Assembly: GCA_964016885.1 (NCBI GenBank)
Contig: OZ024744.1
Coordinates: 4,588,001 to 4,652,000, forward strand
DNA from: Eledone cirrhosa
Lineage: Eukaryota
Length of the DNA stretch: 64,000 bases
Direction: 5' to 3'
Shown: one piece after another, positions 9,001-15,000 of the stretch
Layout: every line of letters begins with the position of its first letter
How positions within the stretch are numbered: position 1 is the stretch's first letter
The notes under the pieces: generated by a model
Databases searched by the model: none
What the model saw: only the letters and a program-made list of their open reading frames with translations
What the model was told of the DNA's origin: nothing
Translations under genes and position numbers: made by a program

Positions 9001-12000
9001 TATATATATTTATATATATATATATATATATTTATATATATATATATATATATTTATATATATATATATATATATTTATATATATGTATATATATGTATA
9101 TATATATATGTATATATATGTATATATATATATATATATATATATATGTATATATATATATATATATGTATATATATATGTATATATATATATATATATC
9201 GCAAGGAGGTGGTAACCTGGTTCTTTTTGTGTTCGAACCTGGTGAATATATCAGTATATCAGAGATAATTAGTCTAATATCTGTGTTCTGTATTTGTAAT
9301 ATATATATATGTCTATATATACATACAGTTTTACTATTATTTTGTTTATATTTTCTAGCTGACGCTTCATATTTGTCTCCTCAAAGTGCAACATTCAAGA
9401 CCCCACGTACTGAAAATGGTAAGAAATAATTTTTAAAATATCTATTCATTATTCAGAAACATATTTATGTTTTGATCAGTGCATTTATAACTAGTTAATT
9501 CAGGCTAGAATATTAAATTACAAACTCCCAACATAATCAAGGATAAACGTTTTATTGACTTCGAACCTCAGAGACCTTACAATGAGGTCAAAAGTAAAGA
9601 TACACATTTTCAGGCCATTATCAGAGTTAGCTATGCAAGAATTACATTATATCTGGTTAAAAAGAGAAGATGAATGTTGCACTAGATACATTGAGGTAGA
9701 TGGAATTATCTCAGACATCAGTGTGCTCAAATATAACAAAGTTGACTCCGACACTTCTTCACTACTTCTGGTCGTCCGTCGTTCTTCATACACCTCATCC
9801 CTGTATCCACTAGATCAGCCATTGCTCTACATATTTGCTTATACCATTATATATGTTTGTGCTTTAGGCCCAGATGGAAACCTCCATATTTGTCTCATAA
9901 TTACAGACACACAATATATAAATAAATGGTTCTAGCTAATTTAAAATACGACGCCTTATTCTACCATTTCCTTAAATTGACAACAAACTCTTCCCAAGAA
10001 AGCCTTCTAGCATTACTATTTTTTTCTTCCGTATTTTTTTCAGTTATTTCTCCTGTAGAGAAATTTGTCTCTGAGCCAGATATTCGAACAGATGCAGTCT
10101 CCAAAGAACGTAAGTTGTATTTCAAACACACTTTGTATTAGTCTGAACAGAACACTATGACACGTTGTTTCAACATTAATGTCAAATCGAGATTACATTA
10201 TATATTTGTGTATGCTGGAACTGATGAATAAACTAGTGTGTATATATATATATAAGTGAAGTCATGCAGGTGTTTGAGTATGTTGATGTATATATATATG
10301 TATTTTGGGTTGTATATAACATTATCGAGTAACTGTTTGTGTGTGTTTGTCCATTGGTTTGGTGGCTTTCTCTATCTGTGAGCTCAGTGTGTGAGTGTGA
10401 TGTTCTCTGTGCACACTCTGTATGCGAGTGTATGTAAGAATAAAGTTTAGTTATAACGACTGTCATCATGATTAGAGAAAATTTGGTAGTACATGTATAT
10501 TTACGGAGCTAAAACACCGTGCTCCTGAGAAGTTTCATTTATATAAATACATGTATATGTATATATATATATATATATATATATATATATGTATATGTAT
10601 ATGTATATGTATATATATATGTATATGTATATGTGTATATATATATATATATGTATGTATATGTATATATATATATATATATGTATATATATGTATATAT
10701 ATATATATGTATATATATGTATATGTATATGTATATATATATATATATATATGTATATATAAAAACAAATAACGAAACGAAATTAAACTTCGTTTCATTT
10801 GTAACTCACTTTCGTATGACTGACGCTTTTACGATTCTCTAGAGAGGCCGGAAGATAGGTAAATATTGCTGATGAGATGTAACAACATCGAAACTAGTTC
10901 AATATTCCTTGCCTGGCTTTCTGGAGAATAGAGGAAAGGTGTTTCCTCAAAAACCAGTATGACTCTAAAAACCGGTTTGTCTGTGTGTTTACATACAGAA
11001 TAGCTGGACACTCACAGTAAAGTGACCAGTGAAAAACTCGGTACATCTACATATGTATACGTGTGTGTATTCATATGCATACTAGTATTTCAGTATACAT
11101 ATGTGGATGTACATCTTTAACTTAATTGTTTAAGCGTCAGTCATACGAAAGTGAGTTACAAATGAAACGAAGTTTAATTTCGTTTCGTTATTTGTTTTTA
11201 TCGTCTCCGTTGAACCGGTACGTACTCACGCTCTATGCAAATTAGTCTGCCCACTACTAATTTTCATAGAAAAAGCATATAACGATATGTGCTTTTACGA
11301 TTCTCTAGAGAGGCCGGAAGATAGGTAAATATTGCTGATGAGATGTAACAACATCGAAACTAGTTCAATATTCCTTGCCTGGCTTTCTGGAGAATAGAGG
11401 AAAGGTGTTTCCTCAAAAACCAGTATGACTCTAAAAACCGGTTTGTCTGTGTGTTTACATACAGAATAGCTGGACACTCACAGTAAAGTGACCAGTGAAA
11501 AACTCGGTACATCTACATATGTATACGTGTGTGTATTCATATGCATACTAGTATTTCAGTATACATATGTGGATGTACATCTTTAACTTAATTGTTTAAG
11601 CGTCAGTCATACGAAAGTGAGTTACAAATGAAACGAAGTTTAATTTCGTTTCGTTATTTGTTTTTATCGTCTCCGTTGAACCGGTACGTACTCACGCTCT
11701 ATGCAAATTAGTCTGCCCACTACTAATTTTCATAGAAAAAGCATATAACGATATGTGCTTTTACGATTCTCTAGAGAGGCCGGAAGATAGGTAAATATTG
11801 CTGATGAGATGTAACAACATCGAAACTAGTTCAATATTCCTTGCCTGGCTTTCTGGAGAATAGAGGAAAGGTGTTTCCTCAAAAACCAGTATGACTCTAA
11901 AAACCGGTTTGTCTGTGTGTTTACATACAGAATAGCTGGACACTCACAGTAAAGTGACCAGTGAAAAACTCGGTACATCTACATATGTATACGTGTGTGT

Positions 12001-15000
12001 ATTCATATGCATACTAGTATTTCAGTATACATATGTGGATGTACATCTTTAACTTAATTGTTTAAGCGTCAGTCATACGAAAGTGAGTTACAAATGAAAC
12101 GAAGTTTAATTTCGTTTCGTTATTTGTTTTTATCGTCTCCGTTGAACCGGTACGTACTCACGCTCTATGCAAATTAGTCTGCCCACTACTAATTTTCATA
12201 GAAAAAGCATATAACGATATGTGCTTTTACGATTCTCTAGAGAGGCCGGAAGATAGGTAAATATTGCTGATGAGATGTAACAACATCGAAACTAGTTCAA
12301 TATTCCTTGCCTGGCTTTCTGGAGAATAGAGGAAAGGTGTTTCCTCAAAAACCAGTATGACTCTAAAAACCGGTTTGTCTGTGTGTTTACATACAGAATA
12401 GCTGGACACTCACAGTAAAGTGACCAGTGAAAAACTCGGTACATCTACATATGTATACGTGTGTGTATTCATATGCATACTAGTATTTCAGTATACATAT
12501 GTGGATGTACATCTTTAACTTAATTGTTTAAGCGTCAGTCATACGAAAGTGAGTTACAAATGAAACGAAGTTTAATTTCGTTTCGTTATTTGTTTTTATC
12601 GTCTCCGTTGAACCGGTACGTACTCACGCTCTATGCAAATTAGTCTGCCCACTACTAATTTTCATAGAAAAAGCATATAACGATATGTGCTTTTACGATT
12701 CTCTAGAGAGGCCGGAAGATAGGTAAATATTGCTGATGAGATGTAACAACATCGAAACTAGTTCAATATTCCTTGCCTGGCTTTCTGGAGAATAGAGGAA
12801 AGGTGTTTCCTCAAAAACCAGTATGACTCTAAAAACCGGTTTGTCTGTGTGTTTACATACAGAATAGCTGGACACTCACAGTAAAGTGACCAGTGAAAAA
12901 CTCGGTACATCTACATATGTATACGTGTGTGTATTCATATGCATACTAGTATTTCAGTATACATATGTGGATGTACATATTTAACTTAATTGTTTATGTA
13001 TATATATATATATATGTATATGTATATATATATATATATATATATATCGCAAGGAGGTGGTAACCTGGTTCTTTTTGTGTTCGAACCTGGTGAATATATC
13101 AGTATATCAGAGATAATTAGACTAATATCTGTGTTCTGTATTTGTAATATATATATATTTCTATATATACATACAGTTTTACTATTATTTTGTTTATATT
13201 TTCTAGCTGACGCTTCATATTTGTCTCCTCAAATTGCAACATTCAAGAACCCACGTACTGAAAATGGTAAGAAATAATTTTTAAAATATCTATTCATTAT
13301 TCAGAAACTTATTTATGTTTTGATCAGTGCATTTATAACTAGTTAATTCAGGCTAGAATATTAAATTACAAACTCCCAACATAATCAAGGATAAACATTT
13401 TATTGACTTCGAACCTCAGAGACCTTACAATGAGGTCAAAAGTAAAGATACACTTTTTCAGGCCATTATCAGAGTTAGCTATGCAATAATTACATTATAT
13501 CTGGTTAAAAAGAGAAGATGAATATTGCACTAGATACATTGCGGTAGATGGAATTATCTCAGACGTCAGTGTTCTCAAATATAACAAAGTTGACTCCGAC
13601 ACTTTTTCACTACTTCTGGTCGTCCGTCGTTCTTCATACACCTCATCCCTGTATCCACTAGATCAGCCATTGCTCTACTTATTTGCTTATACCATTATAT
13701 ATGTTTGTGCTTTAGGCCCAGATGGAAACCTCCATATATGTCTCATAATTACAGACATCCAATACATAACTAAATGGTTCTAGCTAATTTAAAATACGAC
13801 GCCTTATTCTACCAATTCCTTAAATTGACAACAAACTCTTTCCAAGAAAGCCTTCTAGCATTACTATTTTTTTCTTCCGTATTTTTTTCAGTTATTTCTC
13901 CTGTAGAGAAATTTGTCTCTGAGCCAGATATTCGAACAGATGCAGTCTCCAAAGAACGTAAGTTGTATTTCAAACACACTTTGTATTAGTCTGAACAGAA
14001 CACTATGACACGTTGTTTCAACATTAATGTCAAATCGAGATTACATTATATATTTGTGTATGCTGGAACTGATGAATAAACTAGTGTGTATATATATATA
14101 TAAGTGAAGTCATGCAGGTGTTTGAGTATGTTGATGTATACATATATGTATTTTGGGTTGTATATAACATTATCGAGTAACTGTTTGTGTGTGTTTGTCC
14201 ATTGGTTTGGTGGCTTTCTGTATCTGTGAGCTCAGTGTGTGAGTGTGATGTTCTCTGTGCACACTCTGTATGCGAGTGTATGTAAGAATAAAGGTTAGTT
14301 ATAACGACTGTCATCATGATTAGAGAAAATTTGGTAGTACATGTATATTTACGGAGCTAAAACCAAAACACCGTGTTCCTGAGAAGTTTCATTTATATAA
14401 ATACATATATATGTATATATATATATATATATATATATATATATATATATATATATATATATATATATATATATATATATATATATATATATATATATAT
14501 ATATATATATATATATATATATATATATATATATATATATATATCGCAAGGAGGTGGTAACCTGGTTCTTTTTGTGTTCGAACCTGGTGAATATATCAGT
14601 ATATCAGAGATAATTAGTCTAATATCTGTGTTCTGTATTTGTAATATATATATATTTCTATATATACATACAGTTTTACTATTATTTTGTTTATATTTTC
14701 TAGCTGACGCTTCATATTTGTCTCCTCAAAGTGCAACATTCAAGACCCCACGTACTGAAAATGGTAAGAAATAATTTTTAAAATATATATTCATTATTTA
14801 GAAACTTATTTATGTTTTGATCAGTGCATTTATAACTAGTTAATTCAGGCTAGAATATTAAATTACAAACTCCCAACATAATCAAGGATAAACATTTTAT
14901 TGACTTCGAACCTCAGAGACCTTACAATGAGGTCAAAAGTAAAGATACACTTTTTCAGGCCATTATTAGAGTTAGCTATTCAAGAATTACATTATATCTG

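What the first reader, a model, noticed from the sequence alone, without database searches (positions are those of the whole stretch)
10759..12996. 466-bp hammerhead-ribozyme concatemer inserted in an intronic TA microsatellite, sense to the host gene
Seen: five identical type I hammerheads at 466-bp spacing, no coding capacity, and near-perfect unit identity (one substitution noticed, at 12979). Known: minimal type I hammerheads with a palindromic helix III occur in Penelope pLTRs and in metazoan non-LTR retrozymes, cleave as dimers, and retrozyme monomers accumulate as circular RNA. Inference: a young non-autonomous retrozyme-like family, possibly copied from a circular or multimeric RNA by Penelope machinery that targets (TA)n. 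Because it is sense to the predicted pre-mRNA, host transcription could release 466-nt monomers and cut the intron.
Basis: partly seen in the sequence, partly recalled or inferred. Interest (0 to 1): 0.85.

Follow-up and report, generated by a model that had tools for sequence, protein, structure and literature searches.

The report
Ribozyme repeat bearing Penelope insertion fingerprints
This is one of about 2,000 genomic insertions of a 466-base non-coding repeat that carries a predicted self-cutting RNA motif, and its inverted two-armed shape with two fixed ends shows it was likely copied in by a Penelope-type jumping gene, likely from a small RNA circle.

Summary
In detail: 4.66 units of 466 bp, five hammerheads, one substitution (12979), no ORF, inside (TA)n in a predicted + strand intron.

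That arm is the family's rule. The genome holds 2,020 'long' and 2,042 'short' TA junctions at two fixed unit positions about 70 nt apart. Of 72 closed insertions with a long end, 46 have an inverted arm from the short site, 13 a short stub, and none a second long end. Three non-microsatellite targets give 13-bp duplications. Both arms usually share one haplotype and run through the ribozyme cut site seamlessly (477 of 478). A 62%-identical sister family follows the same rule, and the hammerhead stems co-vary.

This is the Penelope-like-element (PLE) 'tail plus inverted copy' signature on a non-LTR retrozyme. Likely mechanism: a PLE protein primes both target strands at two sites on one RNA, probably a monomer circle, and copies it for several laps. 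Cleavage, circles, expression and the partner PLE are untested or not found. The hammerhead is canonical, not minimal. Verdict: new variant of a known kind.

The parts
10759..10828 (-). Inverted arm, 70 bp: unit positions 302 to 233 (unit position 1 = 10900). It is exactly the segment between the two fixed ends (PLE-type 'tail'); its outer end is the 'long' start site.
   Evidence: Exact reverse complement of 11132-11201; same outer end in 2,020 genomic junctions
10825..12996 (+). Direct arm, 4.66 units of 466 bp, from unit position 392 to 233; its outer end is the 'short' start site
   Evidence: short-site TA junctions 2,042 genome-wide
10825..10828 (.). 4-nt microhomology at the junction of the two arms
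   Evidence: Overlap of the two arm alignments; overlaps of 1-10 nt are the commonest junction type
10858..10908 (+). Type I hammerhead 1: helix I 10863-10868/10900-10905, core 10869-10875, helix II 10876-10889, palindromic helix III 10893-10898, predicted cut after 10899 (GUU)
   Evidence: Sequence, Rfam HH9 E 2e-6, covariation
11324..11374 (+). Hammerhead 2, predicted cut after 11365
11790..11840 (+). Hammerhead 3, predicted cut after 11831
12256..12306 (+). Hammerhead 4, predicted cut after 12297
12722..12772 (+). Hammerhead 5, predicted cut after 12763
10900..11365 (+). Predicted cut-to-cut monomer RNA (466 nt), first of four; strongly self-paired
   Evidence: MFE -159.4 kcal/mol, z -10.5, 0 of 100 shuffles as good
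11132..11201 (+). Tail segment inside the array (repeated at 11598, 12064, 12530), bounded by the two inferred reverse-transcription start sites
   Evidence: contigs of run X1 leave the unit for TA at exactly 11132 and 11201
10750..10761 (.). Left copy of a 12-bp target duplication (overlaps the element end by 3 nt of microhomology); register set by one G in the TA run
   Evidence: Identical to 12995-13006; low complexity, so weaker than the 13-bp cases at L033, L037, L041
12995..13006 (.). Right copy of the 12-bp target duplication
10541..10761 (.). Left (TA)n target microsatellite
12995..13047 (.). Right (TA)n target microsatellite
12979..12979 (+). Only substitution in the array (C>A)
10044..10109 (+). 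Predicted 66-nt host exon upstream of the insertion
   Evidence: prediction only
13207..13266 (+). Predicted 60-nt host exon downstream of the insertion
   Evidence: prediction only

Best explanation
This is one insertion of a non-coding 466-bp hammerhead repeat family (a non-LTR retrozyme) with about 2,000 TA-junction copies, two inverted arms and two fixed ends, likely inserted by a Penelope-like element (PLE) protein that primes both target strands on one RNA, probably a monomer circle. SHOWN: the family, TA targeting, two fixed ends about 70 nt apart (unit 228-233 and 301-302), one of each per insertion as the rule, inverted arms joined by microhomology, 12-13 bp target duplications, a shared haplotype in both arms, seamless passage through the cut site, and co-varying ribozyme stems. 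INFERRED: (1) tandem transcripts self-cleave after GUH as double hammerheads, because helix III is a 1-2 bp palindrome, and monomers are ligated to circles that a lone ribozyme cuts poorly; (2) a PLE endonuclease makes a 12-13 nt staggered cut in TA-rich DNA; (3) a likely dimeric PLE protein starts one cDNA at the long site and one at the short site of the same RNA; (4) each RT runs round the template for about 1-2 laps, sometimes many; (5) the two cDNAs are joined by microhomology. Older arrays also grow afterwards by local duplication. In this window the long-site cDNA stopped after 70 nt and the short-site cDNA ran 4.66 laps.
For: Ends: 2,020 long and 2,042 short exact TA junctions, controls 0 and 3. 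First 77 long ends on C1: 5 open, 46 inverted arm from 228-233, 13 short stub, 4 TA only, 9 other, 0 long/long. Top-hit set: 22 of 24 two-arm loci pair long with short. Sister family B (419 bp, 296 of 477 columns identical) shows the same pairing at aligned sites in 6 of 7 loci. Target duplication 13 bp at 3 of 3 non-microsatellite targets. One template: median distance between a locus's own arms 0.23% against 2.36% to other loci; 15 of 62 share a variant found in no other sampled locus. Laps: 51 of 63 long and 38 of 46 short arms pass the cut site, 39 and 30 exceed one unit; 1 of 478 crossings has an indel; L026 (16 units) and L132 have no internal variant; no daughter carries a second inversion junction in 109 loci. 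Ribozyme: 97% of cells paired, 7 of 13 pairs change on both sides, slid controls 35-48%; family-level triplets are GUU, GUC, GUA. Literature: a PLE protein nicks and extends both strands and starts at two internal sites that define the tail (PMC11167929); tail at one end, inverted copy and (TA)n bias (PMC8557442). PLEs with intact 784-aa frames exist in this genome.
Against: No autonomous PLE sharing sequence with the unit was found in about 1 Mb of held DNA. The tail (about 70 nt; about 50 in family B) is longer than the 30-40 bp in print. No RNA evidence was obtained. Short/short insertions exist (2 of 20 selected loci). Against a pure monomer circle: 7 of 45 short arms end just inside the cut site (3.3 expected, p 0.04 uncorrected); 11 variants in 7 of 78 loci are shared by some units of both arms; 58 variants in 16 loci are shared within one arm, which shows later local duplication. 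In 21 of 62 loci another locus's arm is closer than the locus's own. 8 of 9 Xenopus retrozyme dimers did not cleave in vitro (10.64898/2026.07.22.740005).
Confidence: 0.78

Rival explanations
1. Same PLE double priming, but the template is a linear, uncut or partly cut multimeric transcript of a homogeneous source array; no circle is needed.
For: Weak excess of short arms ending at the cut site (7 of 45 against 3.3); 11 variants shared by subsets of units in both arms; hammerhead cleavage was not needed for PLE insertion in vitro and unprocessed RNA was the main substrate (PMC11167929); arrays of 30 or more units exist as possible sources.
Against: No inherited inversion junction or three-segment insertion in 109 loci; 16-unit arrays with a private haplotype and no internal variant; inner ends close to uniform (n=163, chi-square p 0.08); within-array variants shared between loci are few and look like recurrent subfamily sites.
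Confidence: 0.3
2. PLE-type insertions were short, and the multimers arose later by unequal exchange or slippage, as a minisatellite.
For: Higher-order variant patterns in L032, L040, L043, L051, L126-127; this route is proposed in 10.64898/2026.07.22.740005.
Against: Both arms are often multi-unit in variant-free loci (L022, L023, L026); 39 of 63 and 30 of 46 arms exceed one unit and lengths do not depart from an exponential (KS p 0.08, 0.28). A cut linear monomer could give arms of at most 302 or 233 nt.
Confidence: 0.1
3. The unit is the pLTR of an autonomous PLE not yet found, and these are truncated copies of it.
For: Retrozymes match pLTRs in 21 Xenopus cases (10.64898/2026.07.22.740005); only part of the genome's PLE families was examined.
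Against: 0 of 77 long ends and 0 of 20 short ends run into an ORF; arms are pure unit repeats up to 30 units; the hammerhead is canonical rather than the PLE minimal form.
Confidence: 0.08
4. Mobilised by a LINE through ordinary twin priming, or by a DNA rolling-circle route.
For: Inversion with microhomology is typical of L1 twin priming (PMC2837659, search listing and abstract start only).
Against: No poly(A) or free 3' end; two fixed internal ends; long arms do not stop where short arms start (7 of 62 against 4.1, p 0.12); target duplications are present.
Confidence: 0.04
5. The five-copy array is an assembly artefact.
For: Units are identical, and no read or contig spanning this locus was seen.
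Against: About 2,000 loci with the same ends; locus-specific haplotypes; both ends recur in contigs of run X1. Only the exact unit count here remains open.
Confidence: 0.03

Closest known systems
Metazoan non-LTR retrozymes (PMC7229834; 10.64898/2026.07.22.740005), above all axolotl Rtz_331 / HHR_Amex1 and newt satellite 2
   Same: Non-coding tandem units with one canonical type I hammerhead each, GC below 50%, strong self-pairing, 1-bp helix III closed by a palindromic tetraloop (dimer-dependent type), thousands of copies.
   Different: The unit is larger (466 against 170-400 nt). It is dispersed as inverted two-arm insertions with two fixed ends, (TA)n targets and 12-13 bp duplications; term searches of the two main texts found no tail or inverted-arm description (supplements unseen). 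RNA and circles are not shown here.
Endonuclease-bearing Penelope-like elements (PMC11167929, PMC8557442, PMC3846280)
   Same: Inverted 5'-truncated copy, tail at one end, two internal start sites, AT-rich or (TA)n targets, short target duplications (8-10 bp in rotifer), hammerhead upstream of the start sites.
   Different: No ORF; tail about 70 nt rather than 30-40; canonical rather than minimal hammerhead; arms are multi-lap repeats of one unit.
Non-autonomous Chlamys PLEs such as MRC1 (PMC8557442 passages; PMC9977147 passages)
   Same: Non-autonomous, multicopy head-to-tail insertions, microsatellite targets.
   Different: Those generally share 3' sequence with an autonomous family, most Chlamys lack canonical hammerheads, and they target (C)n or (CA)n; no partner was found here.

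Membership tests
Non-LTR retrozyme | Tandem units of a few hundred bp, each with a type I hammerhead | tested here: met
Non-LTR retrozyme | No coding capacity, no LTR-type structure | tested here: met
   Longest open frame 60 codons; ends are internal unit positions; PBS and PPT were not searched for separately
Non-LTR retrozyme | Dispersed mobile copies with target duplications longer than 4 bp | tested here: met
   About 2,000 junctions; 13 bp at 3 of 3 non-microsatellite targets
Non-LTR retrozyme | Self-cleavage of the transcript | not testable with these tools
   Covariation supports a maintained fold; no assay
Non-LTR retrozyme | Expressed as linear and circular monomer RNA | tested here: inconclusive
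   No RNA run was available to test it; contigs cannot tell a circle from an array
PLE-mobilised non-autonomous element | Tail: two fixed ends, extension at one end only | tested here: met
   length about 70 nt, longer than in print
PLE-mobilised non-autonomous element | Inverted 5'-truncated copy | tested here: met
   46 clear arms and 13 stubs in 72 closed loci
PLE-mobilised non-autonomous element | AT-rich or microsatellite target with short duplication | tested here: met
PLE-mobilised non-autonomous element | Sequence shared with an autonomous PLE terminus | tested here: inconclusive
   None found in about 1 Mb held, a small part of a 3-Gb genome with several PLE families
Autonomous PLE | RT plus GIY-YIG ORF | tested here: not met
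PLE minimal hammerhead (min-HHR) | Helix II 7-8 bp, helix I 4-5 bp, poorly defined loop 1 (PMC4209133) | tested here: not met
   Helix I 6 bp plus a distal GG/CC pairing, helix II 4 bp

The most novel reading that the evidence does not exclude
Thousands of insertions record one PLE ribonucleoprotein using both of its start sites at once on a single 466-nt ribozyme circle: two reverse transcriptases run round the same circular RNA from the two cut target strands and write inverted multi-lap concatemers. This would be direct genomic evidence that animal retrozyme circles are the transposition template, and would explain why PLE insertions carry the tail at one end only.
Probability: 0.45. Interest if true: 0.82.

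Novelty: new variant of a known kind. Interest (0 to 1): 0.62.

Why it matters
The link between animal retrozymes and PLEs rests, in the papers read, on co-occurrence, shared hammerheads and pLTR similarity, and circle-templated insertion is a proposed model. Here the insertions themselves carry the PLE fingerprint, in a large, partly very young family and in a sister family. The one-long-one-short rule and the shared haplotype give a quantitative constraint on how PLE tail/inverted structures form, which PMC8557442 calls still undefined. A 466-nt non-coding substrate with mapped start sites makes circle against linear template testable in the existing in vitro PLE system. Separately, two-arm insertions would form long double-stranded RNA and place hammerheads in introns whichever strand is transcribed (inference).

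Tried and rejected
No RNA holder listed; this says nothing on expression. Contigs laid: X4 and X5 (organisms B and C, kind unknown) each hold the unit as a 466-bp loop with few variants; array and circle cannot be told apart, so this was not used. No contig bridged this locus's arm junction; a hole proves nothing.

Partner search: the abundant 784-aa PLE, the L200 family and other PLE pieces in held DNA share no sequence with the unit.

Internal snRNA-type promoter, suggested by an octamer at 11235-11242 kept in both families and by the newt satellite 2 precedent (cited in PMC2220036; the original PMC308520 is not held): three U2 upstream regions have no octamer and no meaningful match to the unit, and the octamer is not invariant in family A. 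Unsupported.

Classical twin priming or collision at the second start site: not significant. Automated target-duplication lengths inside (TA)n are unreliable (26 of 77 loci gave a value, 11-30 bp). The comparison of the 784-aa PLE's own ends ran into TA runs and was not used. Host exons are not more conserved in identity than their flanks; only length, frame and splice sites are kept. Rfam miRNA and other hits at E<10 come from TA-rich hairpins and were rejected. Earlier scan findings: none. An octopus repeat annotation (PMC13282606, passages) has no 'hammerhead' or 'ribozyme'; the taxon was only my recalled guess and no call establishes it.
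Full report
1. Observation. The direct array runs 10825-12996, period 466, 4.7 copies. Four full units are identical and the fifth differs only at 12979. Five hammerhead cores give predicted cuts at 10899, 11365, 11831, 12297 and 12763, and no frame exceeds 60 codons. Rfam has no gathering-level hit but matches HH9 at E 2e-6, 33.1 bits against a cut-off of 52. 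The cut-to-cut monomer folds at z -10.5. The first 70 bases of the finding, 10759-10828, are an exact reverse complement of 11132-11201 and overlap the array by 4 nt. The insertion sits in one TA run of a 1.35-kb tandem host unit (30 near-full-length copies in the window). That unit holds 60-nt and 66-nt AG..GT blocks on the + strand: 36 and 31 found, none with a stop. In 7 of 7 diverged copies checked, length and splice sites are kept while the flanks carry indels, but exon identity is no higher than flank identity. The host gene is a reasonable prediction, not shown.

2. The family. A search of the own genome gave 250 matches from 40 of 289 candidates, many in arrays. Numbering the unit from the cut (position 1 = 10900), I mapped the window and 31 top-hit loci. 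24 have two arms pointing outwards, and 22 of these end at 301-302 on one side and 225-236 on the other; L031 and L038 do not fit. Exact genome-wide counts are 2,020 long-end TA junctions (control 0), 2,042 short-end TA junctions (control 3) and 912 copies of one exact 48-nt hammerhead.

To avoid bias towards long arrays I took the first 77 of the 2,020 long ends, all on C1. 5 were not closed by the DNA fetched. 46 have an inverted arm starting at 228-233, 13 a short stub matching that site (some marginal), 4 go straight into TA, 9 are interrupted or unclear, and none has a second long end. L139 duplicates L138 and was dropped from later statistics. Of 20 short ends without an exact long partner (my choice; two picked because they looked short/short), 16 have a long arm or stub, 2 are short/short, 1 has no inversion and 1 is open. 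The rule is strong, not absolute. Subfamilies range from about 88% to 100% identity. Contigs of run X1 leave the unit for TA at exactly 11132 and 11201. The three non-microsatellite targets each give a 13-bp duplication when 1-6 nt of microhomology are included; the window gives 12 bp. A sister family B (419 bp, 62% identity, 4,434 candidates) has inverted arms with one short and one long end at aligned positions in 6 of 7 loci fetched.

3. The ribozyme. Helix I is 6 bp with an internal loop and a distal GG/CC pairing, helix II is 4 bp with a 6-nt loop, and helix III is one pair closing a palindromic tetraloop. I aligned 18 of 58 distinct variants (the commoner family A forms and 7 family B forms; most single-locus mutants were left out). 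97% of cells pair, 7 of 13 pairs change on both sides, and slid controls give 35-48%. Most double changes are the single A/B split, so they are few independent events; one arises within A (94 units in 26 loci). Family-level triplets are GUU, GUC and GUA. By PMC4209133 (passages) this is the canonical metazoan type that needs a second copy, not the PLE minimal form. It matches the description of axolotl HHR_Amex1, weak as monomer and efficient as dimer (PMC7229834, section 15). Activity here is untested.

4. Template. In 62 two-arm loci the arms of a locus differ by a median 0.23%, against 2.36% to other loci. 41 of 62 are at least as close to their own arm as to any other, and 15 of 62 share a variant seen in no other sampled locus. 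51 of 63 long arms and 38 of 46 short arms pass the cut site, and 39 and 30 exceed a full unit (my counts). Only 1 of 478 crossings has an indel within 3 nt, which excludes a cut linear monomer unless jumps are error-free. 11 of 57 well-covered loci have no internal variant, including L026 and L132. Among 74 arm junctions only the duplicated locus repeats exactly (five other pairs lie within 5 nt), and none of 109 loci has a third segment; the four-segment L204 reads as two adjacent insertions, and L197 and L205 carry a duplicated piece of one arm. These points favour a monomer circle. Against: a weak excess of short arms ending just inside the cut (7 of 45 against 3.3, p 0.04 uncorrected; long arms 6 of 62 against 4.1), 11 variants shared by some units of both arms in 7 of 78 loci, and 58 variants shared within one arm in 16 loci, which show later local duplication. 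I put the circle at about 0.55 and a linear multimer at about 0.3.

5. Machinery. PMC11167929 (main text, parts 1-2 of 4) shows a PLE protein cutting AT-rich DNA, extending both strands, starting at two internal sites that delimit the tail, and predicted to be a dimer. PMC8557442 (passages) and PMC3846280 (passages) describe the inverted copy, the tail often at one end, (TA)n bias and 8-10 bp duplications. The family matches all of these except tail length. The genome has PLEs with intact frames: a GIY-YIG remnant in the window (PF01541) finds 19,998 candidates, and 8 of 13 stretches fetched hold a 784-aa frame. One copy read directly has an inverted end, a tail of about 40 nt and TA flanks. 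None shares sequence with the unit, so the partner is unidentified.

6. Novelty. Non-LTR retrozymes are known (PMC7229834: outline, Results part 1 of 3, sections 15 and 17, term searches), and their PLE origin is argued from co-occurrence and pLTR similarity (10.64898/2026.07.22.740005, parts 1-3 of 5 and term search). Neither main text contains 'tail' or describes inverted arms; their supplements were not seen and may bear on this. Searches listed no paper, judged from titles and abstract starts, that reports this anatomy for a retrozyme; the library lacks most subscription papers. Non-autonomous head-to-tail PLEs are known in algae. It works like a PLE insertion and meets the DNA-level tests of a non-LTR retrozyme; the RNA-level tests are open. 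Verdict: new variant of a known kind, interest 0.62.

7. Host effect. Four monomers could be released from the predicted pre-mRNA, but neither the gene nor cleavage is shown. In 29 of 44 closed two-arm loci both arms pass the cut site, so sense orientation to a host is common by construction.

Noticed in passing
window 1-63200: The host is a 1.35-kb tandem unit separated by TA runs of variable length, with 60-nt and 66-nt symmetric exon-like blocks that would give a 42-aa repeat protein; no homology search was made.
   Followed up: partly
window 53793-54475 (-): GIY-YIG remnant with an upstream CxxxxCxxC motif (Neptune/Nematis type by PMC8557442) of a very abundant PLE family with intact 784-aa frames elsewhere in G000.
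   Followed up: partly
window 46401-46585; L084 about 997-1190: Palindromic piece of another TA-inserted element, with an extension of about 80 nt at one end; looks like a self-primed PLE-type end.
   Followed up: no
window 48769-50384: C/A-rich degraded element with a minimal-hammerhead-like motif near 50272; similar motifs in L106, L128, L171.
   Followed up: no
L076 2925-3384, L206-L212, L026, L031, L087: Older sister family B (419 bp) with the same hammerhead type and end rule; many copies have a U-U pair at the base of helix II, as described for axolotl HHR_Amex2.
   Followed up: partly
L047 about 2480-2500: The left end looks like a stub of the family B long end joined to a family A arm; possibly one insertion from two different RNAs.
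   Followed up: no
G000:C1:5738089-5752749 and C1:81846869-81880457: Very long arms (about 31 units; more than 33 kb) with higher-order variant patterns in the first: satellite-like growth from a retrozyme insertion.
   Followed up: partly
L200 691-2202; L130, L134, L144, L145, L148, L173, L175: A further PLE RT-endonuclease family and its relatives often lie beside family A insertions, separated by TA runs.
   Followed up: partly
runs X4, X5: Organisms B and C, run kind unknown, hold the unit at 97-98% identity as one to three contigs forming a 466-bp loop, unlike the fragmented picture in X1.
   Followed up: no
window 11235-11242: An octamer-type motif lies in a 12-nt block identical in families A and B while its hairpin partner differs; the promoter idea was not supported.
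   Followed up: yes
L213-L215: U2 snRNA genes lie in tandem arrays, and three upstream regions share long AT-rich similarity without an octamer.
   Followed up: no
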